Shown here one piece after another: positions 33,981 to 48,425 of a DNA stretch of 64,000 nt. Each line of letters opens with the position of its first letter. The stretch's first letter is position 1. The stretch comes from Candidatus Campbellbacteria bacterium. Lineage in GTDB: Bacteria > Patescibacteriota > Minisyncoccia > Phycocordibacterales > EsbW-18. The position numbers were made by a program, and so were the translations under genes. The stretch is from NCBI GenBank assembly GCA_024653945.1, contig JANLIT010000002.1, forward strand, positions 80,255 through 144,254, given 5' to 3'. Under the pieces are notes generated by a model that searched no databases, was not told where the DNA came from, and saw only the letters and a program-made list of their open reading frames with translations.

Positions 33981-34970
33981 ATGCAACCTGATTCTTTTTT
34001 ACACAAACCAAGCAAACGTATTTTTGCCCTCGGAATAATTGCTATCGCGGTGATTGCTTCTGTTGTTCTTTTTAAAATAAAACCATCAACCACCCAACAG
34101 GGCGTGCTCAAAAATGAGGTGGTAAGCGGTACCATTGTTACCGAAATAGATTCTGATGCAGACGGACTCAAAGATTGGGAGGAGGCACTTTGGGGTACCG
34201 ACCCAAAAATGACGGACTCGAATGGAGATGGAATTGGTGACCTTGCAGAAGTGCGAAATAAAAAAATCGAAATACAGACGACACGAGAACAAATTCTTAA
34301 TTCTGCAACGAGCAGTATGTTTTCTTATTTTGAACAGGGTACAAACATCACCAAAACCGATGCTCTTTCTCGAGCACTCTTTGAACAAGTTATTGCATTT
34401 AAAACTGCGGGAATTCCTCTCACGAAAGAAGATGCAATACACATCGCTTCAACGCTCGGAAGTGTGATTGAACAGGCACCAGACACAAACCAGAAACAAT
34501 TTCAATTAAGCAACCTCAGTATTATTGAAACACCAACCACTGCACAGTTACATACCTATGGAAACACTGTTGCAGGAGCGCTTAAGGTTACTGTGTCCGA
34601 ACAAAATAACGAATTTTTTGTATTTGAAGAGTTTGCAAAAACAGGAAACGTTGCCTCTTTTGTAAAACTGAGCCCCGTTATTCAGCACTACAAAGATGTT
34701 GTTGCCAAGCTACGCGGTATTGCCACCCCACGAGACATTTCCGCAAGCTACCTTGATTTTATTAATACAACACAAATAACAGCAACTATACTTGGACAAC
34801 TTCAGACCGCCTCCGTCGACTCCGTGGCTATTATTCCCGTGTTACAAACATACCAAACAAACTACGACGCCCGAGTTGCCGCACTTCGTGCCATTAAAAC
34901 GTATCTTGTTGCGCAAAATATCACCTATACCGACTTTGAAGACGGGTTTTTACTTGTTACTATGGACTAG
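33981..34970 (+). CDS. Hypothetical N-terminally anchored protein, first gene of the T4SS-like cluster
   Basis: N-terminal TM helix IFALGIIAIAVIASVVLF. No recognisable domain. Confidence 0.4.
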   Translation: MQPDSFLHKPSKRIFALGIIAIAVIASVVLFKIKPSTTQQGVLKNEVVSGTIVTEIDSDADGLKDWEEALWGTDPKMTDSNGDGIGDLAEVRNKKIEIQTTREQILNSATSSMFSYFEQGTNITKTDALSRALFEQVIAFKTAGIPLTKEDAIHIASTLGSVIEQAPDTNQKQFQLSNLSIIETPTTAQLHTYGNTVAGALKVTVSEQNNEFFVFEEFAKTGNVASFVKLSPVIQHYKDVVAKLRGIATPRDISASYLDFINTTQITATILGQLQTASVDSVAIIPVLQTYQTNYDARVAALRAIKTYLVAQNITYTDFEDGFLLVTMD

Positions 34971-34978
34971 TTCTGTAC

Positions 34979-37900
34979 ATGTTCTCTCATTTTTATACAA
35001 AAATAGTCGTTACTCTCCTCGTTGTGCTTTTTGTCATAACACCCGTTGGTTTATCTCTTTCTACGGGCATGCAAGTACAACGTGTCCAAGCAGGATCACT
35101 GCCTCTTGGCGAGCTTGGTAAGGGCTTTGTTTCCACGGTTGCAGCGTGTGCTATAACTGCATTTATAATGAAATATGTATCTGGTGTTGTTGCAATTTTG
35201 CCATCTGCGACAGTGCCCGCAGGAACGGCGGAAACTCCTGTGAAAAAAATGCTTGACTGTATTCTCTATGGTGTTGTAAACGTAATTATTGAGGACATGA
35301 TAAAGAGCATCACGAGGTGGGCACAGAGTGGGTTTGAAGGAAACCCCGTGTTTGTTACTCAATTGGACTCCTACATGCGCGATGTTGTTGATAAACAGAT
35401 AGGGTTATATCTTGAAAGCAAAATTCCACTGCTTTGTTCTCCGTTTAAACTTGATGTCCAGCTCGCCCTCATGCAGTCATACCAAACAAGTTCCGGGAGA
35501 TATCAAGGGAGCTGTTCGCTCACAGAGGCGGTTGGGAACGTTGAGGGATTTCTTGGTGGAAACTTTTATGACGGTGGCTGGAATGGGTGGGTAGATTTGG
35601 TAAGCAACCCATACAGCAATCCCTACGGCTCATACCTTGAAGCGGACAGAGAGATGAAAATAAAAATCTTAGCAACTACAGATAAACAAACAAAAGATAT
35701 AGCCCAAGGGGCGGGGTACTTGTCTAAGCAGGTGCAACAGTGTTATGCGATGGTTGACGGGACAAGGGTTGATATGACAGCAGAGGATTATGAAAACGCC
35801 AATACTCCCGCTGGTGCAGATGATGTTGGTTGTGATGAACCACGGACAGTCACCCCTGGTTCATATATTCAAGAGCAGGTTGCAAAGACAACTGGACTTT
35901 CTATGGAGCGACTGTCTTTTGCAGATGAACTTAATGAAATGATAACGGCCATTGTTGCCTTCTTGGTACGCGATGTTCTTCTCGGAGAAAAAGGTCTTGC
36001 GGGATACGACCCGAACGATTTCCTCGACGACACATATCCAGACCTTCCAAGTCTTGATGAGATTGAAATACCTGGGGTTGATACGGGTGGTGATTTTCAA
36101 ATGTGTTTGCCAGAAAATTTGTGGGAAATATACCCACTTTCCGATGGAGTACCTGGTCAAGCGATAAGAATTCCATCAAGCCAATACCCTGCAACTGGCT
36201 TGCCATTTACCTCAACGCCTTCAAACCCAAGCTTAGAGATTCCTATCAACATGGGCGTAAAACAAAACTACTCACGTGTACAAATTTCGTTTACTGTAAC
36301 CGTTGGTGACCAATATCAATGTGTTCCGGTCGATCCACCCACACCCGAATGTCCGGTATCTCTTGGTGACCAATACAATGTTTTTTGGCTTCACAGAGAT
36401 ACGGGTTGGGGGCAAAACGATGTGGTTGAACTTGTTTCAAGACAACACGGAGGACAACTGGCCTTTAAGACAAGTGTTAATCTAGTCAATGGAAGTCCTT
36501 GTGCGGCAACACTAAACAATGGTTCTCGTTTTTCTTTTGTTGCTGGTCAGACATATCGCGTTGAAGTAGATTACAACCCGGGCCTAAGGGGTTTTGAGTC
36601 CGGCGCTTTTGGCCAAATGTCGTTAAAAATTAATGGCTCTGCTGTTGCAAGCCTAAACACCGGCACTAACGGCCAGGGTATTAATGTGTTGCAGAGTAAT
36701 CCTCCTTTTGGAAAACATAAGGGCAAGGGTGGTTTTAAAATAGTGCTCGGTGGTGCAGAAAATGCTGAGGGTAATGAGGGTGCCCCCTATGGTTGGACAT
36801 GGAGAGATCTGAATGTTGTATTTACACCCGGTCCGGCAACCACCGCGGATAGTGGTGATGATGATGGCAGCGGTTGTGTTCCTTGGGGAACAACAACGTG
36901 TGAAGGCCCTGTTCCAACAGCAACACTCACCGCAACAAGCCCAGTGAACTCTGGAACTCCCACAACTATTTCGTGGAGTTCAACGGACGCAACATCGTGT
37001 GACGTAACGCAGGGCTCAAATGCAGGATTTTCTACTGGTAGCGCACTATCAGGAAGCGATACCTCGTTTAATCTCACCGCAACTACAACGTTTGCAATTC
37101 GCTGTAGAGGAACGGGTGGGGCAGCAAACAAAAGTGCAACTGTTACTATCGGTGGTGCACCAACAGCAACCCTCACCGCTTCTCCAAACCCCGTAAACCC
37201 ACAAAGCCCAACAATACTGACGTGGAGTTCCACTGGTGCAACAGCGTGTTCAGTAACAGCGGGCTCAGATTCAGGATTTGAAATCGTCGGCAGTGCACCT
37301 TCGGGAAGTGATGACTCAGACGACCTTATAGCTTCGGCAACAACATTTGCAATTCTCTGTACAGGAACAGGCGGAACGGCCACCGCAAGTGTTGTTGTTA
37401 ATGCTGACGCAACACCGACGCCACTACGACTCTTTATTGACGATCGCGACACCCCCGGACAGATGGAACTCTATAAAGAAGCGAGTTCTGGAATCACGAA
37501 ACTCTCTGGACCACTTGTGGCCGACGGAAACGTACTCTTCTTTAAGGTCTCGCAGAATGGCCGGTACGTGGCGTACAGTGCCAGTGCTCGTAATTACCTA
37601 GACTATGAACTGTACACCGTGCCAATCACGGGTGGTGCTGTTACGCGCATTAGCCACACCTTGCCGTTTGACTATGATGTGAAGAATTTTGATTTCTCGC
37701 CAGACGGTCAGCGTGTCGTCTACCAAGCAGGCCGAACATCTATTGGGTTGTGGGAGCTGTTCTCCACACCAAGCGCGAGCGCTGGAGCACTGCGTATCAG
37801 CCAACAAATGGACGCTGGCGAGAATGTGCAGGTACAGCCAGGACAGGAAGAGTTTAAAATAAGTTGTGATAGTGAAACGGTCTACTTCCTCGCCGACACA

Positions 37901-38008
37901 ACGGCAACAGAAGTATATGAGGCATACTCGGTGCCCATCGGTGGTGGCACGATTACACTAATTCCAGGAGGTCAGTTGCCGGTGTTTCCATGTGTGGTTC
38001 CTTTTTAG
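34979..38008 (+). CDS. Large (1009 aa) membrane-anchored surface protein with two ~85-aa Ig-like repeats
   Basis: N-terminal TM. Repeats PTATLTATSPVNSGTPTTISWSSTDATSCDVTQGS...AIRCRGTGGAANKSATV and APTATLTASPNPVNPQSPTILTWSSTGATACSVTAGS...AILCTGTGGTATASVVV. Confidence 0.5.
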   Translation: MFSHFYTKIVVTLLVVLFVITPVGLSLSTGMQVQRVQAGSLPLGELGKGFVSTVAACAITAFIMKYVSGVVAILPSATVPAGTAETPVKKMLDCILYGVVNVIIEDMIKSITRWAQSGFEGNPVFVTQLDSYMRDVVDKQIGLYLESKIPLLCSPFKLDVQLALMQSYQTSSGRYQGSCSLTEAVGNVEGFLGGNFYDGGWNGWVDLVSNPYSNPYGSYLEADREMKIKILATTDKQTKDIAQGAGYLSKQVQQCYAMVDGTRVDMTAEDYENANTPAGADDVGCDEPRTVTPGSYIQEQVAKTTGLSMERLSFADELNEMITAIVAFLVRDVLLGEKGLAGYDPNDFLDDTYPDLPSLDEIEIPGVDTGGDFQMCLPENLWEIYPLSDGVPGQAIRIPSSQYPATGLPFTSTPSNPSLEIPINMGVKQNYSRVQISFTVTVGDQYQCVPVDPPTPECPVSLGDQYNVFWLHRDTGWGQNDVVELVSRQHGGQLAFKTSVNLVNGSPCAATLNNGSRFSFVAGQTYRVEVDYNPGLRGFESGAFGQMSLKINGSAVASLNTGTNGQGINVLQSNPPFGKHKGKGGFKIVLGGAENAEGNEGAPYGWTWRDLNVVFTPGPATTADSGDDDGSGCVPWGTTTCEGPVPTATLTATSPVNSGTPTTISWSSTDATSCDVTQGSNAGFSTGSALSGSDTSFNLTATTTFAIRCRGTGGAANKSATVTIGGAPTATLTASPNPVNPQSPTILTWSSTGATACSVTAGSDSGFEIVGSAPSGSDDSDDLIASATTFAILCTGTGGTATASVVVNADATPTPLRLFIDDRDTPGQMELYKEASSGITKLSGPLVADGNVLFFKVSQNGRYVAYSASARNYLDYELYTVPITGGAVTRISHTLPFDYDVKNFDFSPDGQRVVYQAGRTSIGLWELFSTPSASAGALRISQQMDAGENVQVQPGQEEFKISCDSETVYFLADTTATEVYEAYSVPIGGGTITLIPGGQLPVFPCVVPF

Positions 38009-38050
38009 GTGGAGTTTTAAGATTGGGGTGGTACGGTTGAGGTACATAAA

Positions 38051-40435
38051 ATGAAGCAAATCAAAAAGTGTGTAACTCTAAAAAATATGTTCACGTGGGG
38101 TAAAAAAAATCCAAGTCCAGAACTTTGCCAAGCGACATTATCTCGCGGGGCAAAAAGCGCGCAAAAAAAGTGCTGGATTAAGTTTGTGTTGCCACTTCTG
38201 TTTGTGGTTGCTGTTCTTACCACATTCTCCGTACCAACCCAGGCACACGCATACGAATGTGACCCGCCACGAGAAGGTTACGTGGACATGCACATGGGTT
38301 CTGGGTGTGTACTTCTTCCAGACAATCCTAACCTTGAGGGGACGGGCGCAGAGGACAAAGAAAGTGGTGGCTTTTGGGATATCATAACAAAGCCAAGAAT
38401 CCTTGTTGCGTGGATACTTTATATTGTTCTTGAAATACTTGGAATACTTCTTGCGGTAAGTGGTGCTCTTTTAGATTTCAGTATTCAGTTCTCCATAGTA
38501 AACATGAGTCAGTTTATTTCCGGAACAAACGGAATAAATGAGGGTTGGACAATTATCCGAGACCTCATGAATATTGTCTTTGTGTTTGCACTTCTCTTTG
38601 TGGGAATTAATACCATACTTGGTTCATGGTCTAGTTCATCTTTCAACACAAAACTCATTCCCAAAATTCTCTTGGCCGCCCTGTTTATCAACTTCAGCAT
38701 GATGATTACCAAGGTTGTTATAGACACATCAAACATTCTCACTCTTGAACTTTATGTTGCTACGAAAAAAATCTCTGAACCCGTAGCAGGTGTTACACCT
38801 CCTGAGGGTATTAACATGAATACTACGGGACTTGCGGGGGGGATAATGAACAGCCTGCACATGACCTCTTTTCTAAATGGAAAACTCACAAAAGAGGGGA
38901 GGGCTGTCGCAATACCCGACTCGGCAGATAGAAGTTTGTTGACCAATGTGACCATGGGAATCATTGTTGTGCTCGTTGCCATGTTTATTTTTCTCATCAT
39001 GGCATTTATGTTCTTGGCGCGAATGGTTATTTTTATTATTTTGATAGTTACCTCACCAATAGCATTTATGGGGGGGCTTATTCCTCAGCTCAAATCTCAA
39101 GCGGATAAGTGGTGGGAAGCGTTGTGGGGTCAAGCATTTTTTGCTCCAATCTTTTTTGCAATGCTCTTAGTGGTATTCAAAATACTTAATGACCCCCATT
39201 TTCAAGATTTTGCAGCCCGTCCCCTTGATCCTAATGGTACTGGTATTGAGGGTCTTGATTTATCAAACTTTGTTGCTGGCAGCGCTGAAGTTATTGTTAA
39301 ATATATCATCGTCATCTACCTCCTTGTTACTGCACTCATTGTTGCTAAAAAAGTTTCAAGTGATGCAGGAAAGGGTGCTGCTGGTTTGGGTTCAAAACTG
39401 GCGGGTGGCGCAATATTTGGAGGCGGAGCACTTCTCGCCCGACAAACACTTGGACGCGCCGGAGAAGGGTTGGCAAAATCTGGGAGGGTTGGAAGGTTGG
39501 CAGAGTCAACAAACCCATTCATAAAACGTGTTGGCCAATCACTCTCTGCGGCAGGAAACTGGACACAAAAGGCAAGTTTTGATACACGGGGTCTCAAAGC
39601 TGCCGCTAGCCTTGATGCTGGAAAAGCTGCTGGTGAAGGTGGTCTGATTGGTAGACGCGAAGCACGAAGTAAGGGGAAGGAGGAGCGTCTTACTATGTAC
39701 GCAAAGAACAGAGCAATAGCAGGACAAGAGGTGGCAGTACGAGAAGCCGAGGCAGATGTTTCGAAGAAAACGAAAGAGGGCGCAAGTGACGATGACATAA
39801 AGAAGGCAAATGACAATCTTGCTATACAGAAAAGCGCGCTTGTTGAAATGAGGGGTGGCCCATCAAAAGAGCGCAGAGAACTTGCTGAAGCAAGTGCAAA
39901 GCTTACTCTTGCAGAAGAAACAGAGCTTAACACTACAATGAAAATAATTGCACTGCGAAAAGAATATATTGAAGACCTTGAAAACCGAAGAGACATTGCA
40001 AAAGAGGGTTCAGATGAGAAGAGGAAGCTTGAAGAGGAAGTAACAGACGCCAAGAAAAACCTTGAGGAATACAAGAACGGTATAAAAGGTGCGGATGGCA
40101 CGGTGACTGGGGCTAAATCAAAAAACATATTGGATGTGATTGGACTAATGGAGACACGGGGCAAAATTGAAAAAGCCCAAAAAACCACCACCGCAACGGC
40201 CCTACGAAAATTGGGTGAGGAGTATGCTACTTCAGTAGTTGTAGCAACACATGATGCGGGAGTAAGAGTAATACGAAAAGGACTAGAGGACTCAGAAAAA
40301 GGTAGTCTCGCCAAAGAAATCGCAAAGTTGAAGGCGGAAAAAAAGGACGCGAAAGAACCTGAAGTGAAGACACCGGCACCGGCGGCGCCGGGGGGACCAG
40401 TGCCACAGCTAGGAAACCCACACAGCCCAGAATAG
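38051..40435 (+). CDS. VirB6/TrbL-like polytopic membrane protein with a long charged coiled-coil C-terminus (794 aa)
   Basis: 6-7 predicted TM helices in the first 450 aa. The K/E-rich C-terminal half. Its position beside the VirB4 and PrgI-like genes supports the call. Confidence 0.4.
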   Translation: MKQIKKCVTLKNMFTWGKKNPSPELCQATLSRGAKSAQKKCWIKFVLPLLFVVAVLTTFSVPTQAHAYECDPPREGYVDMHMGSGCVLLPDNPNLEGTGAEDKESGGFWDIITKPRILVAWILYIVLEILGILLAVSGALLDFSIQFSIVNMSQFISGTNGINEGWTIIRDLMNIVFVFALLFVGINTILGSWSSSSFNTKLIPKILLAALFINFSMMITKVVIDTSNILTLELYVATKKISEPVAGVTPPEGINMNTTGLAGGIMNSLHMTSFLNGKLTKEGRAVAIPDSADRSLLTNVTMGIIVVLVAMFIFLIMAFMFLARMVIFIILIVTSPIAFMGGLIPQLKSQADKWWEALWGQAFFAPIFFAMLLVVFKILNDPHFQDFAARPLDPNGTGIEGLDLSNFVAGSAEVIVKYIIVIYLLVTALIVAKKVSSDAGKGAAGLGSKLAGGAIFGGGALLARQTLGRAGEGLAKSGRVGRLAESTNPFIKRVGQSLSAAGNWTQKASFDTRGLKAAASLDAGKAAGEGGLIGRREARSKGKEERLTMYAKNRAIAGQEVAVREAEADVSKKTKEGASDDDIKKANDNLAIQKSALVEMRGGPSKERRELAEASAKLTLAEETELNTTMKIIALRKEYIEDLENRRDIAKEGSDEKRKLEEEVTDAKKNLEEYKNGIKGADGTVTGAKSKNILDVIGLMETRGKIEKAQKTTTATALRKLGEEYATSVVVATHDAGVRVIRKGLEDSEKGSLAKEIAKLKAEKKDAKEPEVKTPAPAAPGGPVPQLGNPHSPE

Positions 40436-40445: not shown

Positions 40446-41108
40446 GTGGTGGTTAATATAGTACATTGTATGAACGAAGAATCTCAAAAAATCATCAAAG
40501 AAAAATTTGCCCAGCTTCCTCCTGCTTTACAAAAAGCATTTACGGAGATTGATCTTTTGGGTCGTGTGCGAAATATCATAACCAAAAATAATCTGCGAGT
40601 GGACGACGGGGGGTTGTTTGAGGATGAGGTTATGTTTATATTACTTGGTTTAGAGCATCCAAATAACTTTATTGCGAACCTTACCACCCGACTGCATGTT
40701 CCCCTTATCACTATTGAAAAACTTGTTATTGATGTAGAGAAGGAAGTTTTTCTTCCTGTGAGAGAGTCCTTGATGAAGATGTTTCCAACTGGGGAACACG
40801 GAGCAACCCCCGAAAAACTACCTGTCGCACCAGCAACGTCTCAACAACACTCCCCAACCGTTATCTACCCGCAAAAACCCGCCGTACAAGCACCAGTATC
40901 ACAAGCGGTACCTCCTGCAAATCTTCCAATCACACCACAACCACAGACAGCCCCTGGACTAACCCGCACACTTCCAAAAGATATTGTACAAACAAAACTT
41001 GAACAAAGTTTCCGCATGCCTCCAACAACGACAACCATTAAAGAAAGTACGCCACCAACACCTGTGACACAAAAGGTGGTAGATCCGTACCGCGAACCAA
41101 CTGAGTGA
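40446..41108 (+). CDS. Hypothetical protein with a Pro/Thr/Gln-rich C-terminus (alternative start at 40470)
   Basis: The ORF track starts at GTG 40446. The first ATG (MNEESQK) is at 40470. Confidence 0.4.
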   Translation: MVVNIVHCMNEESQKIIKEKFAQLPPALQKAFTEIDLLGRVRNIITKNNLRVDDGGLFEDEVMFILLGLEHPNNFIANLTTRLHVPLITIEKLVIDVEKEVFLPVRESLMKMFPTGEHGATPEKLPVAPATSQQHSPTVIYPQKPAVQAPVSQAVPPANLPITPQPQTAPGLTRTLPKDIVQTKLEQSFRMPPTTTTIKESTPPTPVTQKVVDPYREPTE

Positions 41109-41196
41109 CATGTAGCATGTAGCACGAAGCATGTAACATGTAGCTTGAAACAAGAAGTTTTAGAAAAAATTTAGGACAGGGAGTTATTGTATACTG

Positions 41197-41559: not shown

Positions 41560-41605
41560 GATATATAACGTGTATCATGTAGCATATAATGCACAACAAA
41601 AATAT

Positions 41606-41633
41606 GTTACATGTTTCGTGTTACATGTTTCGT
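41606..41633 (+). repeat. Tandem 14-bp direct repeat GTTACATGTTTCGT x2, immediately upstream of the PrgI-like gene
   Basis: 41606-41619 and 41620-41633 are identical. Related CATGTAGC/CATGTAAC motifs cluster at 41109-41150 and 41576-41590, flanking the four-helix-bundle gene. Confidence 0.55.
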
Positions 41634-41641
41634 GTCCTACC

Positions 41642-42064
41642 ATGAAATTTGAAGTCCCTCAATTCATTGACATAGAAGACAAGGTGTTCGGACCACTCAC
41701 CTTTAAACAGTTCATCTATCTTGCGGGTAGTGCTGGTCTTTCGGTGGTTATTTGGGTTTTTCTACCACTTCTTCTTGCCATTCCACTTATTGGTGTTGTT
41801 GTCGGACTTGGTGTTGCGCTTGCATTCTATAAAGTGAACAACGAACCATTTATTGCTCTCATTGAGTCAGCGCTTCGATACTCTCTCGGGCATAAACTGT
41901 ATATTTGGAAAAAAATGCCGAAAAAAGTTACCAAAGAAAAAGAAGATGGCACACAGGAGTCCGGTATGCTTGTTCCCCGCATCGCAGATAGTAAGTTGCG
42001 CGACCTTGCGTGGAGTTTGGATGTACACGATTCACTCAATGGGGGCGGGGAATCACCACTGTAA
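41642..42064 (+). CDS. PrgI-like (VirB3-analog) small membrane protein
   Basis: MKFEVPQFIDIEDKVFGPLTFKQFIYLAGSAGLSVVIWVFLPLLLAIPLIGVVVGL shows the Gram-positive-type PrgI pattern: N-terminal amphipathic segment, GPLT, two TM helices. Confidence 0.4.
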   Translation: MKFEVPQFIDIEDKVFGPLTFKQFIYLAGSAGLSVVIWVFLPLLLAIPLIGVVVGLGVALAFYKVNNEPFIALIESALRYSLGHKLYIWKKMPKKVTKEKEDGTQESGMLVPRIADSKLRDLAWSLDVHDSLNGGGESPL

Positions 42065-42105
42065 GTGTTGGTGAGACGCACTTTCTCGGCTACAATATAT
42101 ACATT

Positions 42106-42777
42106 ATGGCCCAACCAAAAGCCGAATCGACACAGGCATTCGTGCCCATCAAAGAAATTCGTAGTGGTGTTGTTGTACTCAAAGATGGGTCTCTTCGTGC
42201 TGTCCTTCTTGCATCATCTCTCAACTTTGCTCTCAAATCTGAAGATGAGCAATCTGCCATCATCATGCAATTTCAAAACATGTTGAACTCTATTGAGTTT
42301 CCCATTCAGATACTCGTGCAATCCCGCAGACTTGATATTCGCCCATACATTGCCTTGCTAGAAAACCAACTAAAGGAACAAACAATTGACCTCATTAAGG
42401 TGCAAACACGTGAGTACATTGAATTTGTGAAAGGATTCACCGAGAATGTGAGCATCATGACAAAATATTTTTATATTGTGGTGCCCTACACTGGCGCAAT
42501 TGTGAGTGCCTCAAAGGGCGGTGTTCTCGGTGGACTCAAGGGGCTCTTTGGAAAAAAGAATCGTACCAATTCCGAACAAAAACTTACCGCTTTTGAAGAG
42601 AGTCGCAGTCAGCTCGAACAACGCGTTACCGCTGTAACACAAAACCTTGCGCGTACGGGCATTCGCTCAACACAACTAAGAACTGAAGAGCTTGTTGAGT
42701 TGTACTACAAAATGTTTAATCCTGGCGACTCAGAAAAACCTATTGTTCTGCAAGGACTTCAGGGGGTTCAAAAATAA
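42106..42777 (+). CDS. virB4: VirB4/TraC-family ATPase, N-terminal domain, encoded as a separate ORF (split gene or pseudogene)
   Basis: AFVPIKEIRSGVVVLKDGSLRAVLLASSLNFALKSEDEQSAIIMQFQNMLNSIEFPIQILVQSRRLDI is the canonical VirB4 N-terminus. TAA at 42775-42777 lies 3 nt before the ATG of the ATPase ORF. Confidence 0.55.
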   Translation: MAQPKAESTQAFVPIKEIRSGVVVLKDGSLRAVLLASSLNFALKSEDEQSAIIMQFQNMLNSIEFPIQILVQSRRLDIRPYIALLENQLKEQTIDLIKVQTREYIEFVKGFTENVSIMTKYFYIVVPYTGAIVSASKGGVLGGLKGLFGKKNRTNSEQKLTAFEESRSQLEQRVTAVTQNLARTGIRSTQLRTEELVELYYKMFNPGDSEKPIVLQGLQGVQK

Positions 42778-42780
42778 TAT

Positions 42781-44709
42781 ATGGGAATTCTTGATTTTAT
42801 AAAAGGAAAACCAAAAAAGGCGGCACAAATTACCCCCGTGCTTCCAAAGGATATTTACGAGGCTGGTGTGCTTGAACTCCAAGACGTTATTGCACCATCT
42901 GCTCTCAAAATAACACCCCGCGCACTCAACCTTGGGGACAAGGTGGTGCGAACGTTCTTTGCTATTTCATACCCACGCTTTCTTCCAGACAATTGGCTTT
43001 CACCAGTTATCAACATGGACAAGGTGTTTGATCTCTCTATCTCTATTATTCCTGTTGATACCGCACAAGTGCTCAAAGAATTCAGAAAGCGTGTTGCAGA
43101 AGTACAAAGCCAAATTCACATGCGCGAAGATAAGGGAATGGTGCGTGACCCAATGCTTGATAGTGCCTATGAAAATCTTGAATCACTTCGTGACCAACTA
43201 CAACAAGCAACTGAGAAACTATTTGATGTTGGACTGTATATCTCCATCTATTCAGAAAATGAGAGTGACCTTGATAAAACAGAATCAGAAATTCGCTCAC
43301 TTCTTGAATCACGTCTTATTTATCTCAAACCCGCGCTCTTCCAACAAGAGCAGGGATTCAAGAGCGTGCTTCCTGTGGGAACCGACGAACTTGGTATCCA
43401 CAGCAAACTCAACACAGCACCTCTCTCAAGCTTTTTTCCATTTGTGTCATTTGATCTTTCATCAAATCAGGGAATTCTCTATGGTGTGAACCGCCACAAC
43501 TCTGGACTCATTCTGTTTGACCGATTCTCTATGCCAAACTACAACTCAGTTATGTTTGCAACATCAGGGGCAGGAAAAAGTTACGCAACGAAGTTGGAAA
43601 TTCTTCGTACGCTCATGTTTGACACCGAAGTTATTGTAATTGACCCAGAGCGTGAGTATGAATTTATGGTTGATGCTATGGGTGGACGCTATTTTGATAT
43701 TTCACTTACATCTCAACACCACATCAATCCCTTTGACCTACCTCCAGTGCGCGAAGATGAAACCCCAGCAAACGTATTGCGTTCAAACATTATTACACTT
43801 GTGGGACTCTTCCGTATTATGTTTGGTGGGCTCACGCCAGAAGAGGATGCCATTATTGACCGAGCTATTACTGAAGTGTATGCACTCAAAGATATTACTG
43901 GAGAACACGATTTTGCGGGTGTTGAGCCACCCCTTTTGTCTGATTTTGAACTCGTGCTTGCGGGTATGAACGGTGGAGAATCGCTCGTACAACGACTTTC
44001 AAAGTACACCAAAGGAACGTGGTCTGGCTTCATCAACCAACCAACTAACGTGGATATCAATAAAAAATTTATTGTGTTCTCTGTACGTGACATGGAAGAG
44101 GAGCTCAAGCCGGTTGCTATGTATTTGATTACACACTATATCTGGAGTGCAGTACGCCGTACACTCAAAAAGCGCCTCCTTGTGGTGGACGAGGCATGGC
44201 TCATGATGAAGGATGAAAATACCGCATCGTTGTTGTTTGGGTTGGCAAAACGTGGACGAAAGTACTTCCTCGGCATTGCCACCATCACGCAGGATGTTGG
44301 GGACTTCCTACGTTCCCCATACGGACTTCCAATTATCACCAACTCTTCAATTCAGTTGCTCTTAAAACAGTCTCCGTCGTCTATTGATCTCGTGCAACAA
44401 ACATTTAACCTCACCGACGAGGAAAAGTTCTTGCTTCTTGAATCTGAGCGCGGGGAGGGCATTTTCTTTGCTGGACTCAAGCACGTGGCAATAAAAAGTA
44501 TTGCATCGTATACCGAAGACCAAATTATTACCTCGGACCCGTCACAACTTCTTGCACTCAAAAAATCACGAGAAGAATTACAGGCAACAAAAGAGAGTGA
44601 CGTGGTAAAAACAAGTGATGTTGAACCTCTTGCAGAAAAAGTATCACAATCTGAACAACACAAAAACGAGCTTCTCACCCAGGCTGTGGATATGAAAAAC
44701 GTAGAATAA
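42781..44709 (+). CDS. virB4: VirB4/TraC/CagE-family type IV secretion ATPase (C-terminal two thirds)
   Basis: Walker A ATSGAGKS, Walker B LLVVDEAW, and conserved FDxxGxxY and ATQ motifs. Confidence 0.8.
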   Translation: MGILDFIKGKPKKAAQITPVLPKDIYEAGVLELQDVIAPSALKITPRALNLGDKVVRTFFAISYPRFLPDNWLSPVINMDKVFDLSISIIPVDTAQVLKEFRKRVAEVQSQIHMREDKGMVRDPMLDSAYENLESLRDQLQQATEKLFDVGLYISIYSENESDLDKTESEIRSLLESRLIYLKPALFQQEQGFKSVLPVGTDELGIHSKLNTAPLSSFFPFVSFDLSSNQGILYGVNRHNSGLILFDRFSMPNYNSVMFATSGAGKSYATKLEILRTLMFDTEVIVIDPEREYEFMVDAMGGRYFDISLTSQHHINPFDLPPVREDETPANVLRSNIITLVGLFRIMFGGLTPEEDAIIDRAITEVYALKDITGEHDFAGVEPPLLSDFELVLAGMNGGESLVQRLSKYTKGTWSGFINQPTNVDINKKFIVFSVRDMEEELKPVAMYLITHYIWSAVRRTLKKRLLVVDEAWLMMKDENTASLLFGLAKRGRKYFLGIATITQDVGDFLRSPYGLPIITNSSIQLLLKQSPSSIDLVQQTFNLTDEEKFLLLESERGEGIFFAGLKHVAIKSIASYTEDQIITSDPSQLLALKKSREELQATKESDVVKTSDVEPLAEKVSQSEQHKNELLTQAVDMKNVE

Positions 44710-44716
44710 CCCGGCT

Positions 44717-45520
44717 ATGTCAGAAAATGATTCTCAAGAAAATAAAAAACCGAAACGAATTGATTCTACAACACGCTACTTGTTGATTGGAACCGCAATT
44801 ATTTTTGATCTTATCAGCATTATCCCTGTTGTTGGACAGTTCTTGGCCATTGGAGGGGCGGGTATCACTTTTTATATTTGGTTCAAGACACTCGGCGTAT
44901 CATTCATAAGCCCAAAACGAATTGTAACCACCGCCGTTGAGTATATTGGCGAAGCAATTCCTGTTGTAAGTGCTCTTCCCCTTATAACAACTGGAACAAT
45001 TATTATGATTGTGTTAACTGACATTGAGGACAAAACGGGAATCGGTTTGGCAAGTTTGGCAGCTGGAAAAATGTCAAAAGGGAAAGTGTCCACAACAGCA
45101 CAACGAACAGAAAGAAAGGCTGCACGTAGAGCGGCCGATCCCGAACGAGCAACTCGGGCACGAGAACGCCTAGCCAAAATGAAAGAAAAAAAGGTTGGTA
45201 TAGCGACAAAAACGAATCCTCAGGGAATGATGAGGGATTTAAAGCCAACCGAAAAGTACAATTATGGAGATGGTGGGGCAAAGGTGACATTTAAAAACCC
45301 TTGGCAGAAATTAAAGTTTAGAGTAGGAAAACCACAAATAAAGGCGACTGGTGGAGAGGAGTGGGAGCAAAACCCTGCAAGTGAACGCCTACGACTCATT
45401 CGAGGTGGTGGCCAGGGAATAAGTGCACCTAGTCAGCCACTATCAAAGTACAACGAGCCTCTCACCGACCATTCTCCTCCAACTGGTCCTGTGGAAAACA
45501 AAGAAAAAGGAACCGCTTAA
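44717..45520 (+). CDS. Hypothetical membrane protein (267 aa) in the T4SS-like cluster
   Basis: Three hydrophobic helices in the N-terminal 110 aa. Charged C-terminus. Confidence 0.4.
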   Translation: MSENDSQENKKPKRIDSTTRYLLIGTAIIFDLISIIPVVGQFLAIGGAGITFYIWFKTLGVSFISPKRIVTTAVEYIGEAIPVVSALPLITTGTIIMIVLTDIEDKTGIGLASLAAGKMSKGKVSTTAQRTERKAARRAADPERATRARERLAKMKEKKVGIATKTNPQGMMRDLKPTEKYNYGDGGAKVTFKNPWQKLKFRVGKPQIKATGGEEWEQNPASERLRLIRGGGQGISAPSQPLSKYNEPLTDHSPPTGPVENKEKGTA

Positions 45521-45547
45521 AATATAAAAGAGTGCTAGTATAAAGGT

Positions 45548-46261
45548 ATGACAACGCTTCAAAAAACAGCCATCCTTGTCTTTCTTTTTCTTTTTGGTGC
45601 TGTTGCCAACGCCCAAATAAACGTTACTACAGAAATTATCCGACCAACAGTTGAAATGATATGGGAAGCGCATTCTTATATTCCACCTTTTTATAAAGGA
45701 AAAGCACTCTATCCGATTGGTGGGGAAGTAACCGTCTTAGCGCTTCCTCCTGCTTCGTTGGGAAATCCAAACGCTCTCACCTACACATGGAAACGAGATG
45801 GGCAAGTGCAGGGGTCTCTTTCTGGTGTTGGAAAAAGTTCTTTTAGTTTCTCTGGTTCACAATTTGGAGACATACCACTCGTTGTTGTTGAGGTTTCTAG
45901 CGGAAACGCGAGAGCTGTTGGGGCGCTTCAAATTCAACAAATAAATCCAGTCATTAGGTTCTATGAAAATAAACCACTGGAAGGTGTTGCTCTTGAACAC
46001 GCACTTCCTCAAACTCTCACAACGACAAAAAAGGACATAGCACTTGAGGTATACCCGTATTTTTTCTCAGCAAATACTAACAACGACAGCTCGCTTGCAT
46101 ACTCGTGGTCAGCAAATGGAAAAAAAATTCTTGATGCAAAAGGTCCAAGTATTGTTGTACAAAGTGATGAACCTCGTTCCATCATCATGTTACTTTCCAT
46201 GAATCATGTTGCTCAAATTCTTCAACGAGCAAGTACTAGTATTCTCGTTACCTTTGAATAG
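45548..46261 (+). CDS. Secreted hypothetical protein (237 aa)
   Basis: Signal peptide LQKTAILVFLFLFGAVANA. SD AAAGG. Confidence 0.4.
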   Translation: MTTLQKTAILVFLFLFGAVANAQINVTTEIIRPTVEMIWEAHSYIPPFYKGKALYPIGGEVTVLALPPASLGNPNALTYTWKRDGQVQGSLSGVGKSSFSFSGSQFGDIPLVVVEVSSGNARAVGALQIQQINPVIRFYENKPLEGVALEHALPQTLTTTKKDIALEVYPYFFSANTNNDSSLAYSWSANGKKILDAKGPSIVVQSDEPRSIIMLLSMNHVAQILQRASTSILVTFE

Positions 46262-46262
46262 T

Positions 46263-47168
46263 ATGCGTATACTCACTAGAAAAAATGTTGTCTTTGTTTT
46301 AACTCTTGTCGTTTTCCTTGTACCCATCTTTTTTATTCATGCCGCAACAGAACCATACACACTTCTTGTCAATGATATTCCGGGTCTTGGAGAGACGGTA
46401 ACACCTGGTGCGGGAGGTGGGGTGGGTGCATATCTCAATACCATTTTTAGAATAGGTCTGGGTATTGCCGTAACACTTGCCATTCTTATGTTTGTCTACA
46501 ACGGAGTCATCTACATGACATCCGACATTGTTGGAAACAAAGAGGGTGCAAAAAAAGCATTCTTGAGTATTTTAGGAGGGCTCGTGCTTGTATTTAGCTC
46601 TGTGCTTATTCTTGAGGTCATCAATCCCCAACTTGTTAACTTTGGAATCTTTGAAACACTAGGAGCAATTGAACCCGCACCAGGTGGCGGGGGTGGGGGC
46701 GGAACGCCTCCTCCCCCTGGAGGGGATGGAACAACCGACCCCGCCATGGAAACCAGTGCTCGTGCATATTTAGATGCTAACCATATCACCGTAAATCAAG
46801 CCGCCTGTACTCCTGGACAAGGGGCTCCAAGTTGTATAAACGTTGGTGACATGTCGACACCTGTTGCACATCAACTTGTCGCTTTGGCTGAAGCCTGTGG
46901 ATGCAACATAAACATCACAGGTGGAACAGAGCGGGGTCACACAACACACGGACCAGACAAACCTATGTATGATTTTAGTAAAAAAATAATAAACGGCCAG
47001 ACACCGCCTATTACCACCTACCTTGAGGGCCTGCAAAAAGTGAAGGTGGTCGGTGGCGGACAAGTATATACTGATGGAACGAGTGAGTTCTGGGATGAGC
47101 CCGCAAATCCGGGTAGCAATTGGGGTTCACACTGGCATGCGTGTATTGGAACAACGTGTCGTTTTTAA
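46263..47168 (+). CDS. Pilin-like (TrbC/VirB2-like double-TM) N-terminus fused to a Cys/His-rich C-terminal domain
   Basis: Signal anchor plus a second hydrophobic segment (FRIGLGIAVTLAILMFVYNG...SILGGLVLVFSSVLILEVI). G/P-rich linker. C-terminus with CTPGQGAPSC, ACGC, HTTHG, HWHAC resembles a zinc-hydrolase fold. Confidence 0.35.
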   Translation: MRILTRKNVVFVLTLVVFLVPIFFIHAATEPYTLLVNDIPGLGETVTPGAGGGVGAYLNTIFRIGLGIAVTLAILMFVYNGVIYMTSDIVGNKEGAKKAFLSILGGLVLVFSSVLILEVINPQLVNFGIFETLGAIEPAPGGGGGGGTPPPPGGDGTTDPAMETSARAYLDANHITVNQAACTPGQGAPSCINVGDMSTPVAHQLVALAEACGCNINITGGTERGHTTHGPDKPMYDFSKKIINGQTPPITTYLEGLQKVKVVGGGQVYTDGTSEFWDEPANPGSNWGSHWHACIGTTCRF

Positions 47169-47180
47169 TAAATATAGTGT

Positions 47181-48425
47181 ATGAAAAAAATTGTTATTTT
47201 TATAATCGTATTTGTTGTCGCTCTTTTTTTGGCAGGGAGTGTGTGGTGGTTTTTTACGAAAAATGATTTAGCAACGACGGGAGACGGTACACAACAGGGA
47301 ACTCAAACATTTAACCCGTTTGGACTTTTTGGAGACATCACACCAATACGTCCCAGCGCAACGAGCACAGACGGACAAACACCCGACACTGGTGTACAAC
47401 AAAAAAAGTTTCTTACCGCTATTTCTGAAAAAGTAGTTGCTGGTTCCACATTTGCCATCATTACACATGGCACCTCTACCGATATGTTGGTGCGTTATGT
47501 TGAACGAGAAACAGGACACATTTTTGACTACTCACTTTCAACGGGGCTTACGACTCGTATTTCAAACACTACCGTTCCTCGCGTTCGTGAGGCATTGTGG
47601 GGAAACAACGCTTCAACCGTTGCGTTACGCTATCTTACTGAGGACGGTTCTATAGAAACATTTTTAGGAACCATTGCAACATCAAGCGCAAATTTGGACA
47701 ACGGATCACTTCTATCTGGATCATTCCTGCCAAAAGACATTGTATCTCTTTCTATTCACCCAACACTTCCAAAAACTTTTTATCTTACAAAAACAAATGC
47801 TGGTGGTGTTGGGTATGTTTTGAGTGAAAAAATTACAAAAAGTGTGTTTTTACACCCTTTTTCACAATGGCAAACCTCGTGGAGTGGAGCATCGTCCGTT
47901 CTTTTAACAACGGCACCGTCCTCTCAATCTAACGGAAACGCTTTCTTGCTTAACACAACAACGAAGACCTTTGACCGCATCGCCAGCAGCACGACCGCAT
48001 TAACAGCACACCCTTCTCCAGACGGATTGCGTGTTCTTTTTGGATCCGTAGGACAAGCCGGTATGCGACTCTTTATATATGATGTTATGAAAAAACAAAG
48101 AACCGCACTTTCTTTCAGCACGCTTCCAGAAAAATGTGCGTGGGTAGGGGCGGGAACCCTGTATTGCGCCATTCCTGATATTCAAATTCAAACAGGGCTT
48201 CCTGATGTGTGGTATCAAGGTGTTGTGTCGTTTTCTGACGAGCTTTGGAAAATTGATACACAAACAGGAAATGCAACATTCATTTTCGACCCACACGACA
48301 CAATTTCCGGTGGTGCCGACATGATTGATATAGGGGTGAGTGCTGGTGGAGGGTTTCTTTCATTCACAAATAAAAAAGACGGCCGGCTGTGGCTCGTTGA
48401 TTTTTCCGCCCAACCCGTAGAATAA
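47181..48425 (+). CDS. Hypothetical N-terminally anchored protein (414 aa), possibly beta-propeller-like
   Basis: N-terminal TM helix. Ser/Thr-rich. Last gene of the cluster before the bidirectional terminator. Confidence 0.4.
   Translation: MKKIVIFIIVFVVALFLAGSVWWFFTKNDLATTGDGTQQGTQTFNPFGLFGDITPIRPSATSTDGQTPDTGVQQKKFLTAISEKVVAGSTFAIITHGTSTDMLVRYVERETGHIFDYSLSTGLTTRISNTTVPRVREALWGNNASTVALRYLTEDGSIETFLGTIATSSANLDNGSLLSGSFLPKDIVSLSIHPTLPKTFYLTKTNAGGVGYVLSEKITKSVFLHPFSQWQTSWSGASSVLLTTAPSSQSNGNAFLLNTTTKTFDRIASSTTALTAHPSPDGLRVLFGSVGQAGMRLFIYDVMKKQRTALSFSTLPEKCAWVGAGTLYCAIPDIQIQTGLPDVWYQGVVSFSDELWKIDTQTGNATFIFDPHDTISGGADMIDIGVSAGGGFLSFTNKKDGRLWLVDFSAQPVE

What the first reader, a model, noticed from the sequence alone, without database searches (positions are those of the whole stretch)
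33981..48425. Type-IV-secretion-like gene cluster without relaxase or coupling protein
About 14 kb of co-oriented genes encode: a 1009-aa surface protein with Ig-like repeats; a VirB6/TrbL-like 794-aa polytopic protein; a PrgI-like two-TM protein; VirB4 split into N- and C-terminal ORFs; several membrane-anchored or secreted hypotheticals; and a pilin-like protein fused to a Cys/His-rich putative hydrolase. No VirD4, relaxase, VirB11 or VirB9/10 homolog is visible. A four-helix-bundle gene flanked by ACATGT-type repeats is embedded. PilB lies 13 kb away. The composition suggests a minimised Gram-positive-type T4SS-like apparatus used for DNA uptake or host-cell interaction rather than conjugation.
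Basis: partly seen in the sequence, partly recalled or inferred. Interest (0 to 1): 0.7.

Follow-up and report, generated by a model that had tools for sequence, protein, structure and literature searches.

The report
Known Patescibacteria chromosomal type IV secretion cluster
This is a real but already described kind of gene cluster: the chromosomal, relaxase-free type IV secretion system that most ultrasmall Patescibacteria (CPR) carry next to their replication origin, here in a Campbellbacteria genome, with one under-described detail (its pilin carries an extra metal-binding-type domain).

Summary
Window 33981-48425 carries 12 co-oriented genes. Eleven form a type IV secretion (T4SS) cluster: a VirB4 ATPase encoded as two genes (a TrsD-like N-terminal part plus the ATPase body), PrgI/VirB3, a divergent extended VirB6/TrbL, one VirB2-type pilin with a C-terminal extra domain, and six envelope or unknown proteins. 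The twelfth is an embedded 23S-rRNA-IVS-protein gene enclosed by a long stem.

No relaxase, coupling protein, VirB11 or VirB9/10 was found in the 64 kb window, nor inside the same cluster in 55 related genomes.

The locus is chromosomal and syntenic (uvrD-ksgA-cluster-yidC-rnpA-dnaA-dnaN) across 55 Paceibacteria species. The source is a Candidatus Campbellbacteria MAG.

This system has been published: Quiñonero-Coronel 2025 (PMC12102498) covers distribution, TrsD, pilins, absence of relaxase and proximity to dnaA. Wang 2023 (PMC10633639) shows it is essential for epibiotic growth in a Saccharibacterium.

Two details may be under-described. First, the pilin's C-terminal domain, with invariant Cys, His, Asp and Glu residues, belongs to a family of at least 1115 clusters. 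It has no Pfam or PDB relative and is twice fused to a lytic transglycosylase instead of a pilin. Second, IVS-like cassettes recur inside this operon.

The parts
33981..34970 (+). o1: 329-aa membrane-anchored protein. One N-terminal TM, a weak TSP3-type Ca-binding repeat, and a helical C-terminal domain. First gene of the cluster and the least conserved.
   Evidence: tblastn relatives in only 9 of 55 loci, always between ksgA and o2. A promoter-like site lies at 33916-43.
34979..38008 (+). o2: 1009-aa envelope protein. It has N-terminal TM segments and a conserved ~350-aa N-terminal module. The variable C-terminus here carries two ~80-aa tandem repeats at about residues 646-810 and a weak TolB-like propeller signal. 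Probably an adhesin-like surface protein.
   Evidence: repeat score 196 against 38 +/- 6. N-terminal module conserved in 32 of 55 loci, with protein lengths of 285-1009 aa. Homologues carry F5/8 type C, Fn3 or LamG C-termini. No Pfam or PDB hit for the N-terminal module. The AlphaFold model was unusable, pLDDT 47.
38051..40435 (+). o3: 794-aa polytopic membrane protein with about 7-8 hydrophobic segments (residues 39-437) and a ~350-aa Lys/Glu/Ala-rich hydrophilic tail. A divergent 'extended' VirB6/TrbL.
   Evidence: Own sequence gives no Pfam or NCBIfam hit. 3 of 25 orthologues hit PF04610 TrbL, best E 1.5e-5. 4 of 33 homologues are annotated PF04610 or PF19590, for example P0007, which matches o3 at E 5.5e-56. 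Hydrophobic segments.
40446..41108 (+). o4: ~212-aa soluble protein (start probably 40470). It has a helical N-terminal domain, a Pro-rich linker and an invariant C-terminal DPYREP motif. Role unknown.
   Evidence: No TM segments. Relatives in 28 of 55 loci. Invariant D-P-Y-(R)-E-P at the C-terminus in 27 sequences. No Pfam or PDB hit.
41107..41636 (+). IVS-like cassette. The gene o5 (41197-41559, 120 aa, 23S rRNA intervening-sequence protein / four-helix bundle) is enclosed by inverted arms at 41107-41139 and 41604-41636. Probably not a T4SS component.
   Evidence: PF05635, 91.6 bits. Arms are 33 nt and 85% complementary. TGTWACATGT occurs 3 times in the window, all here, against 0.37 expected. 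The predicted closing stem has z = -6.6. Equivalent cassettes occur in 12 of 55 related loci.
41642..42064 (+). o6: PrgI / VirB3-like protein of 140 aa with a TM hairpin.
   Evidence: PF12666 PrgI, E 9.4e-10, 39.3 bits against a cut-off of 27. Present in 52 of 55 loci. Hydrophobic segment at residues 23-66.
42106..42777 (+). o7: TrsD-like protein of 223 aa, equivalent to the N-terminal ~180 residues of VirB4.
   Evidence: Matches the N-terminal parts of VirB4 models: NF045975 positions 97-233 (E 2.8e-14), TIGR00929 positions 3-179 (E 1.6e-5), NF045971 positions 2-101 (E 3.2e-5). The hit to TrsD NF041427 is weak, E 0.004. A separate ORF in 54 of 55 loci.
42781..44709 (+). o8: VirB4 ATPase body of 642 aa, with the Walker A motif GAGKS.
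   Evidence: NF045971 (CD1110-family VirB4), 364.7 bits against a cut-off of 325, covering model positions 185-734 of 752. PF19044, E 5e-23. PDB 4ag5, E 4.7e-42. 59-81% identical to genes in 55 Patescibacteria genomes.
44717..45520 (+). o9: small 3-TM membrane protein. The conserved core is ~115 aa; here it has a basic, probably disordered 150-aa tail. Role unknown.
   Evidence: No relation to the pilin by hhalign and no consistent Pfam family. Relatives in 20 of 55 loci.
45548..46261 (+). o10: secreted or anchored 237-aa protein with two Ig/PKD-like domains.
   Evidence: N-terminal hydrophobic segment. Weak profile hits to a PKD domain (E 0.0097) and to T4 Hoc (E 0.049). Relatives in 44 of 55 loci.
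46263..47168 (+). o11: VirB2-type T4SS pilin (signal peptide plus two TM helices, residues ~1-126), a Gly/Pro linker, and a 145-aa Cys/His-rich C-terminal domain (residues ~158-301) that is predicted to be extracytoplasmic.
   Evidence: PF18895 in 12 of 12 orthologues and PF04956 in 7 of 12. NCBI names the identical protein 'pilin'. C-terminal domain: invariant C, C, GG-E, H, D, E, H and near-invariant H. At least 1115 representative clusters; 122 of the top 150 have a pilin N-terminus. SLT fusions in P0065 and P0072. No Pfam, PDB or fold match.
47181..48425 (+). o12: 414-aa protein with an N-terminal TM anchor and a TolB/PD40-like beta-propeller. Last gene of the cluster.
   Evidence: Profile against PDB: designed propellers E 4e-5, TolB E 0.017. 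Pfam PD40 in 2 of 26 orthologues and DPPIV_N in 5 of 26. Relatives in 41 of 55 loci.

Best explanation
The region is the vertically inherited, chromosomal type IV secretion system typical of Patescibacteria, the monoderm MPF_FATA-derived 'Patescibacteria clade'. This is the Paceibacteria/Parcubacteria layout next to the replication-origin genes, in a Candidatus Campbellbacteria genome.

Shown here:
- A membrane translocon set: VirB4 made of two polypeptides (TrsD-like plus ATPase body), PrgI/VirB3, and an extended VirB6.
- One VirB2-type pilin.
- No relaxase or coupling protein nearby.
- Conserved synteny with housekeeping genes.

Inferred: VirB4, VirB3 and VirB6 form an ATP-driven channel in the single membrane. 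The channel assembles a pilus or short conduit from the pilin. By the positive-inside rule, the pilin's C-terminal domain is exposed outside the cell, where it probably cuts or binds peptidoglycan, taking the VirB1 role. The anchored surface proteins are o2 (variable adhesin-like C-termini), o10 (Ig/PKD-like) and o12 (beta-propeller); they would scaffold the apparatus through the wall or contact the host cell. The machine most likely serves the epibiotic lifestyle, by transfer of proteins or other macromolecules to or from a host cell, rather than conjugation. The homologous system is essential for growth on the host in Southlakia epibionticum.

The embedded IVS-protein gene is a separate cassette whose enclosing RNA stem probably creates a processing site in the operon transcript.
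For: - Component identities.
- Two-gene VirB4 collinear with one VirB4 model, and conserved as two ORFs.
- Source organism: P0001 and P0034 are 100% identical to Candidatus Campbellbacteria MAG proteins.
- Synteny uvrD-ksgA-cluster-yidC-rnpA-dnaA-dnaN across 55 species-level genomes.
- No GC anomaly: 0.43-0.49 inside the cluster against 0.38-0.50 across the window.
- No relaxase, T4CP or other Walker-A protein in the window or inside the cluster in the 55 loci.
- Literature describing this system and context: PMC12102498, PMC10633639, PMC12857230.
- Pilin C-terminal domain twice found fused to an SLT lytic transglycosylase.
Against: - Function is not tested. The role of this T4SS is called 'completely unknown' even in the cultivated model (PMC11665869).
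- VirB6 identity rests on orthologues, not on the window protein itself.
- No VirB8-like protein was recognised.
- The hydrolase role of the pilin domain has no family or fold support.
- A coupling protein may exist elsewhere in the genome; only 64 kb of a contig of at least 238 kb was seen.
Confidence: 0.85

Rival explanations
1. The apparatus is an uptake machine, importing DNA, nucleotides or other host material. It would work like the Helicobacter ComB T4SS or the archaeal Ced system, both of which operate without a relaxase.
For: - There is no relaxase or T4CP near the cluster.
- o8 gives a weak partial hit to CedB: 32 bits against a cut-off of 700.
- The literature raises uptake as a candidate role because these organisms cannot make nucleotides (PMC11665869).
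Against: - No ComB-type VirB7/9/10 or Ced components were found.
- In S. epibionticum, natural transformation depends on ComEC and comEC is dispensable, while the T4SS is essential (PMC12857230). DNA transformation itself is therefore not the essential function.
- Direction of transport cannot be read from sequence.
Confidence: 0.2
2. The cluster is the transfer module of an integrated conjugative element or a decayed plasmid, with the relaxase and T4CP lost or lying just outside the window.
For: - The VirB4, PrgI and TrsD families come from conjugative elements of Firmicutes and Mycoplasma.
- A tyrosine recombinase lies at 11158-12090.
Against: - The same gene order, flanked by uvrD/ksgA and yidC/rnpA/dnaA/dnaN, occurs in 55 different species-level genomes.
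- There is no compositional anomaly.
- The recombinase is 22 kb away and separated by housekeeping genes.
- All 11 genes are intact, and most are conserved at 25-80% identity.
- PMC12102498 found relaxases in only 103 of 3035 genomes.
Confidence: 0.03
3. The system is mainly a pilus or adhesion and wall-remodelling device with no substrate translocation. VirB4 would only power pilin extraction and polymerisation, and the pilin-tethered domain and surface proteins would mediate attachment to, or lysis of, the host wall.
For: - A single conserved pilin slot is filled in 43 of 56 sequences, most with a C-terminal extra domain.
- o2 has variable adhesin-like C-termini.
- No coupling ATPase is present nearby.
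Against: - VirB6 and VirB3, which form the translocation channel in other systems, are conserved here.
- A separate type IV pilus system (PilB at 61750-63465) already provides adhesion and motility in this phylum (PMC12206443, listed).
Confidence: 0.12

Closest known systems
Patescibacteria-clade T4SS (Quiñonero-Coronel et al. 2025, PMC12102498). The experimentally studied example is SEML1_0006-0019 of Southlakia epibionticum (Wang et al. 2023, PMC10633639).
   Same: Chromosomal. VirB4 plus an adjacent TrsD-like gene, PrgI/VirB3, VirB6 and a VirB2-like pilin inside a monoderm-type system. No relaxase or T4CP beside virB4. Located near dnaA, dnaN, ksgA and rnpA, as reported for Paceibacteria.
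   Different: There is one pilin gene rather than the array of six divergent pilins seen in Saccharibacteria, and it carries a 145-aa C-terminal domain. No separate lysozyme or peptidase genes lie downstream of virB4. The accessory genes o1, o2, o4, o9, o10 and o12 are lineage-specific and uncharacterised.
[quoted passage not shown]
   Same: The best curated VirB4 model is the CD1110 family (above cut-off). The PrgI family is present. VirB4 is split as in TrsD/TrsE. There is no outer-membrane core.
   Different: No relaxase, T4CP, recognisable VirB8-like (PrgL/TcpC) protein or PrgB-type adhesin. It has a VirB2-type pilin, which Gram-positive systems normally lack. It is chromosomal and vertically inherited.
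Mycoplasma ICE T4SS (NCBIfam Mbov_0397 VirB4 and the Mbov_0395 pilin-like protein).
   Same: o7 and o8 match the Mbov_0397 VirB4 model (E 2.8e-14 and 2.7e-72). The o11 pilin region weakly matches the Mbov_0395 pilin-like family, 20.6 bits against a cut-off of 40.
   Different: All scores are below the curated cut-offs. The Mycoplasma system belongs to a mobile ICE with DNA-transfer functions.
Helicobacter pylori ComB DNA-uptake T4SS.
   Same: A T4SS that works without a relaxase or VirD4-type coupling protein.
   Different: ComB is a diderm system with VirB7/9/10 homologues, and none is present here. No sequence-level relationship beyond VirB4 was seen.
23S rRNA intervening sequences encoding PF05635 proteins (established knowledge of Leptospira- and Coxiella-type IVSs; recalled, not tested here).
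   Same: A PF05635 ORF enclosed by a long imperfect stem formed from the flanks.
   Different: It sits inside a protein-coding operon rather than in an rRNA gene. Rfam finds no rRNA in the window.

Membership tests
Type IV secretion system, monoderm MPF_FATA-derived Patescibacteria clade | VirB4-family ATPase with Walker motifs | tested here: met
   NF045971, 364.7 bits against a cut-off of 325. PF19044, E 5e-23. PDB 4ag5, E 4.7e-42. GAGKS P-loop.
Type IV secretion system, monoderm MPF_FATA-derived Patescibacteria clade | VirB4 branches inside the Patescibacteria clade of the VirB4 tree | tested here: inconclusive
   No tree was built. o8 is 59-81% identical to VirB4 genes of 55 Patescibacteria genomes, and its best curated model is MPF_FATA-type. 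This is consistent with the clade but is not a phylogenetic test.
Type IV secretion system, monoderm MPF_FATA-derived Patescibacteria clade | TrsD-like gene (homologous to the VirB4 N-terminus) next to virB4 | tested here: met
   o7 matches the N-terminal 100-230 positions of three VirB4 models, best E 2.8e-14. The match to the TrsD model is weak, E 0.004. Present in 54 of 55 loci.
Type IV secretion system, monoderm MPF_FATA-derived Patescibacteria clade | VirB3/PrgI homologue | tested here: met
   PF12666, 39.3 bits against a cut-off of 27.
Type IV secretion system, monoderm MPF_FATA-derived Patescibacteria clade | VirB6/TrbL polytopic membrane protein | tested here: met
   Met only by transitive homology. 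o3 itself has no hit. 3 of 25 orthologues hit PF04610, best E 1.5e-5. Homologues P0007, P0011 and P0016 carry PF04610, with E to o3 as low as 5.5e-56. About 7-8 hydrophobic segments.
Type IV secretion system, monoderm MPF_FATA-derived Patescibacteria clade | VirB2-like pilin near virB4 | tested here: met
   PF18895 in 12 of 12 orthologues, best E 1.3e-8; the window protein scores 25.0 bits against a cut-off of 26.6. PF04956 in 7 of 12.
Type IV secretion system, monoderm MPF_FATA-derived Patescibacteria clade | VirB8-like (NTF2-fold) component | tested here: not met
   No Pfam, NCBIfam or PDB-profile hit for any cluster protein. PMC12102498 also reports that VirB8 is rarely detectable in this phylum, so the published clade does not require it.
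Type IV secretion system, monoderm MPF_FATA-derived Patescibacteria clade | Chromosomal context near dnaA, dnaN, ksgA and rnpA (Paceibacteria layout) | tested here: met
   ksgA at 31957-32808, yidC at 48484-49218, rnpA at 49237-49566, dnaA at 49975-51339, dnaN at 51575-52675. Same order in 55 loci.
Conjugative element (ICE or conjugative plasmid) | Relaxase (any MOB class) | tested here: not met
   No relaxase family among any ORF of 150 aa or more in the window by Pfam. No unassigned large ORF inside the cluster in the 55 loci. MOBscan itself was not available.
Conjugative element (ICE or conjugative plasmid) | Type IV coupling protein (VirD4/TcpA) | tested here: not met
   No T4CP family and no Walker A motif in the unassigned ORFs of the window. 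The rest of the genome could not be searched.
Conjugative element (ICE or conjugative plasmid) | Integration module or variable presence (island behaviour) | tested here: not met
   The nearest recombinase is 22 kb away. The cluster is present at the same chromosomal position in 55 species. No GC anomaly.
LAS / peptidase M15-type zinc peptidoglycan peptidase (for the o11 C-terminal domain) | His...Asp...His metal-ligand pattern (H-x6-8-D, then H-x-H or E-x-x-H) | tested here: met
   The pattern alone is met. H228-x7-D236, E278 and H289-W-H291 are invariant or nearly so in 28-38 diverse members. The comparison with VanY-type motifs is from memory and was not computed.
LAS / peptidase M15-type zinc peptidoglycan peptidase (for the o11 C-terminal domain) | Significant sequence or fold similarity to a known LAS enzyme | tested here: not met
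23S rRNA intervening-sequence protein cassette (PF05635) | PF05635 four-helix-bundle ORF | tested here: met
   91.6 bits against a cut-off of 33.8.
23S rRNA intervening-sequence protein cassette (PF05635) | Located inside a 23S rRNA gene | tested here: not met
   Rfam finds only tRNAs in the window. The gene lies between o4 and prgI.
23S rRNA intervening-sequence protein cassette (PF05635) | ORF enclosed by a long stem formed by its flanks | tested here: met
   33-nt arms, 85% complementary. Fold z = -6.6. 11 of 14 cassettes in related loci have flank duplexes with z of -2.7 or lower.

The most novel reading that the evidence does not exclude
In this Paceibacteria T4SS subtype, the single VirB2-type pilin carries an extracellular, metal-binding-type domain on a flexible Gly/Pro linker. 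The domain belongs to a family of at least 1115 sequence clusters that has no Pfam, NCBIfam or PDB relative.

If the domain is a peptidoglycan peptidase, the pilin itself supplies the 'missing' VirB1 function. A pilus built from it would be an enzyme-studded filament able to breach the wall of the host cell.

Separately, a conserved IVS-like stem-plus-ORF cassette may act as an RNase III processing site that uncouples the two halves of the operon.
Probability: 0.3. Interest if true: 0.6.

Novelty: already known. Interest (0 to 1): 0.3.

Why it matters
As a T4SS call, this adds nothing beyond published surveys. It is one more instance of a system already known to be nearly universal in Patescibacteria and essential in the one tractable species. 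The function of that system is still unknown.

The useful residue is practical. The Paceibacteria layout gives a compact, strongly syntenic 11-gene set, with only one pilin and defined accessory proteins, for comparative and structural work.

The pilin-fused domain family may explain why VirB1 homologues are rarely found next to virB4 in this phylum. It also offers a directly testable biochemical handle: wall-degrading activity and metal dependence.

Tried and rejected
- **o2 structure.** AlphaFold2 on the o2 N-terminal module with 14 sequences gave pLDDT 46.8, which is unusable, so no fold search was made.
- **PDB profile searches.** Nothing significant for o3, o2-N, o11, the C-terminal domain family or o4. 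A single-sequence search with the L018 pilin also found nothing.
- **Phage search.** tblastn of a pilin C-terminal domain against phage genomes gave only chance hits.
- **Two pilin C-terminal domain types.** hhalign between the GGTE-GH-H-D type and the TE-WPPT-H-CH-G-CVD type put the motifs in register but was not significant, E 0.15. Their homology is not claimed.
- **o9 as a second pilin.** Rejected: hhalign probability 0.2%.
- **o10 as VirB8/TcpC-like.** Rejected in favour of Ig/PKD-like.
- **A diversity-generating retroelement around the Avd-like o5.** Rejected: no reverse transcriptase and no template/variable repeat pair in the window.
- **Exact-sequence look-ups** of o8 and P0001 found no recorded contig.
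- **DnaA-box scan** did not localise oriC.
- **Promoter and terminator scans** were no better than shuffles.

Full report
**1. What is in the sequence**

Between 33981 and 48425 there are 12 tightly packed ORFs on the + strand. Comparison with orthologues corrects four starts: o4 probably 40470, o6 41642, o7 42106 and o11 46263.

The flanks are housekeeping genes:
- upstream: uvrD (29649-31946) and ksgA (31957-32808)
- downstream: yidC (48484-49218, minus strand), rnpA (49237-49566, minus strand), dnaA (49975-51339), dnaN (51575-52675) and a class A PBP

GC content inside the cluster (0.43-0.49) is the same as outside it.

**2. Source and conservation**

o3 and o11 are 100% identical to proteins of a Candidatus Campbellbacteria MAG on a 238,534-bp contig. 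NCBI calls o11 'pilin'. The lineage is Patescibacteria, Parcubacteria group.

A scan of one genome per species with o8 returned 55 loci, all from Patescibacteria (Zambryskibacteria, Paceibacterota, Parcubacteria and others), at 59-81% identity. tblastn of every gene against these loci shows one conserved order: uvrD-ksgA-(o1)-o2-o3-o4-(IVP)-prgI-trsD-virB4-(o9)-o10-pilin-o12-yidC-rnpA-dnaA-dnaN.

The cluster is therefore a stable chromosomal locus at the dnaA region, not an island.

**3. Core T4SS components**

- **o8 is VirB4.** It scores 364.7 bits on the NCBIfam CD1110-family VirB4 model (cut-off 325), hits PF19044 and AAA_10, and matches the PDB 4ag5 VirB4 C-terminal domain at E 4.7e-42.
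- **The VirB4 split is real.** o8 covers positions 185-734 of the 752-position model. o7 covers positions 2-101 of the same model and the N-terminal parts of two other VirB4 models, best E 2.8e-14. In the window the two ORFs happen to share a frame. In relatives they are separate ORFs in different frames, in 54 of 55 loci. This is the conserved TrsD/TrsE-type arrangement reported as the commonest T4SS component of the phylum (PMC12102498).
- **o6 is PrgI/VirB3**, scoring above the Pfam cut-off.
- **o3 is VirB6-like by transitive homology.** It gives no hit by itself. However, 3 of 25 orthologues hit TrbL/VirB6, and homologues annotated PF04610 or PF19590 match o3 at E values down to 5.5e-56. 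It has about 7-8 hydrophobic segments and a ~350-aa hydrophilic tail. That fits the 'extended VirB6' type discussed in PMC12857230.
- **The o11 N-terminal part is a VirB2-type pilin.** PF18895 matches 12 of 12 orthologues and PF04956 matches 7 of 12.

**4. What is absent**

Pfam scans of all ORFs of 150 aa or more in the 64 kb found no relaxase, T4CP, VirB11, VirB8, VirB9 or VirB10. The five large unassigned ORFs have no Walker A motif.

In the 55 loci, the ORFs inside the cluster that are not matched to window genes are divergent pilins, o4 homologues or TrsD. None is a candidate ATPase.

The rest of the genome could not be searched. PMC12102498 reports VirD4-like genes in most Patescibacteria genomes, usually far from virB4.

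**5. Accessory proteins**

- **o2** has a conserved ~350-aa N-terminal module found in 32 of 55 loci. Its C-termini are very variable (protein lengths 285-1009 aa) and in homologues carry F5/8 type C, Fn3 or LamG domains. Here it has two genuine ~80-aa tandem repeats. This is the pattern of a surface adhesin on a conserved anchor. The fold of the anchor remains unknown because the model failed.
- **o10** is a secreted protein with two PKD/Ig-like domains.
- **o12** is an anchored TolB/PD40-like beta-propeller. The signals are weak but concordant.
- **o9** is a small 3-TM protein unrelated to the pilin.
- **o4** is a soluble protein with an invariant C-terminal DPYREP motif.
- **o1** is a poorly conserved anchored protein.

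**6. The pilin's extra domain**

After the second TM helix comes a Gly/Pro linker and then a 145-aa domain. By the usual VirB2 topology and the Lys-rich inter-helix loop, this domain should lie outside the cell (inference).

An exhaustive profile search found 1115 representative clusters at E of 1e-3 or better. Of the best 150, 122 have the same pilin N-terminus. Two of them, P0065 and P0072, instead have an SLT lytic transglycosylase N-terminal to the domain. That arrangement mirrors the SLT-plus-peptidase architecture of Gram-positive VirB1-like hydrolases described in PMC12102498.

Invariant residues are two Cys, GG-E, His, Asp, Glu and His, with two further near-invariant His. The arrangement H-x7-D ... 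H-W-H resembles LAS/M15 zinc peptidases. That resemblance is from memory and was not computed. No Pfam, NCBIfam, PDB-sequence or fold-search result supports it.

In the related loci the pilin slot between o10 and o12 is filled in 43 of 56 sequences. Seventeen carry this domain. Others carry the pilin alone or a different C-terminal domain with a similar-looking motif, whose homology is not significant.

I did not find this fusion mentioned in PMC12102498. A search of that paper for 'fused' and 'fusion' returned only the VirB3-VirB4 passage. That paper notes that most genomes with VirB2 lack a VirB1 homologue.

**7. The embedded four-helix-bundle gene**

o5 is a PF05635 protein. Its flanks form a 33-nt, 85%-complementary inverted repeat built from ~14-nt tandem units. 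The motif TGTWACATGT occurs only here in the window. The predicted RNA fold closes the whole gene in a ~35-bp stem, z = -6.6.

tblastn finds 13 more such genes in 12 of the 55 loci, all within 2.4 kb upstream of virB4. They occupy three different intergenic slots:
- o4|prgI: nine cases, including the window
- prgI|trsD: two cases
- trsD|virB4: three cases

Eleven of the 14 have flank duplexes with z of -2.7 or lower, and the arm sequences differ in every genome. The architecture matches an rRNA intervening sequence placed inside an mRNA. An RNase III-type processing site is the most economical reading, but it is not shown.

No reverse transcriptase or template repeat is present, so it is not a diversity-generating retroelement.

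**8. Comparison with the literature**

- PMC12102498 surveyed 3035 Patescibacteria genomes and found VirB4 in 2417 of them. It reports a monophyletic Patescibacteria clade nested in MPF_FATA, abundant TrsD, PrgI/VirB3, VirB6 and VirB2-like pilins near virB4, and relaxases in only 103 genomes. In Paceibacteria it reports proximity to dnaA, dnaN, ksgA, rnpA and rpmH.
- PMC10633639 showed that the homologous cluster is essential for epibiotic growth of S. epibionticum and lacks recognisable coupling and relaxase proteins.
- PMC12857230 and PMC11665869 list it as a new T4SS type whose role is unknown, with effector delivery or uptake as candidate roles.

**9. Verdict**

Interest is low to moderate.

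The remaining value lies in two points:
- The pilin-fused domain family is large, unannotated and plausibly a wall-active enzyme.
- The IVS-like cassettes recur inside the operon.

I found neither in the papers I searched or read. Neither is proven here.

Noticed in passing
window 41107-41636; also L007 8463-8846, L025 8497-8874, L054 8036-8416, L009 9560-9931, L017 9566-9925 and others: PF05635 ('23S rRNA IVS protein') genes enclosed by long flank-to-flank stems recur inside the T4SS operon. There are 14 cassettes in 13 of 56 sequences, in three different intergenic slots, all within 2.4 kb upstream of virB4. The arms are made of short tandem units whose sequence differs in every genome while complementarity is kept. 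This may be an RNase III processing element or a small mobile cassette.
   Followed up: partly
window 46731-47168 (o11 residues ~158-301); P0052-P0200: The pilin's C-terminal domain defines a large family of at least 1115 clusters at 50% identity. It has no Pfam, NCBIfam or PDB relative. It is mostly fused to T4SS pilins and twice to SLT lytic transglycosylase. It has invariant Cys, His, Asp and Glu residues.
   Followed up: partly
window 40470-41108 (o4) and orthologues in 27 loci: This soluble protein has an invariant extreme C-terminal motif, D-P-Y-R-E-P, behind a Pro-rich linker. In several relatives the codons for this motif are part of a hairpin that spans the stop codon. The motif could be a docking or secretion signal.
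   Followed up: no
window 20142-20227 and 29099-29184: An 86-nt direct repeat (78% identity) consists of a near-consensus promoter (TTGACA-17-TATAAT) followed by a conserved ~50-nt leader containing a hairpin. The copies lie upstream of an unassigned 529-aa secreted protein and of uvrD. There is no Rfam match.
   Followed up: no
window 7205-7266, 22311-22369, 24343-24404: There are three copies of a ~60-nt GC-rich double-hairpin element (90-95% identical or complementary) in intergenic regions, resembling REP-like or terminator repeats.
   Followed up: no
window 14337-14396, 22355-22400, 29766-29954, 48472-48505, 63885-63918: Intergenic tracts of degenerate CTACTTA / TAAGTAG-type short tandem repeats occur on both strands across the window. 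Similar units build the arms around IVP genes in related genomes.
   Followed up: no
window 8689-11127 (-), 20631-22220 (+), 22248-23942 (+): Three large ORFs (812, 529 and 564 aa) have hydrophobic N-terminal or internal segments, no Pfam hit and no P-loop. They are probably surface proteins. The 812-aa one lies next to a XerC/D-like tyrosine recombinase at 11158-12090.
   Followed up: no
window 32789-33922 (-): A divergently transcribed 377-aa anchored protein with a weak PG_binding_1 domain lies directly upstream of the cluster. It is conserved in only 3 of 55 loci. An M23 peptidase with LysM domains lies at 27765-28793.
   Followed up: no
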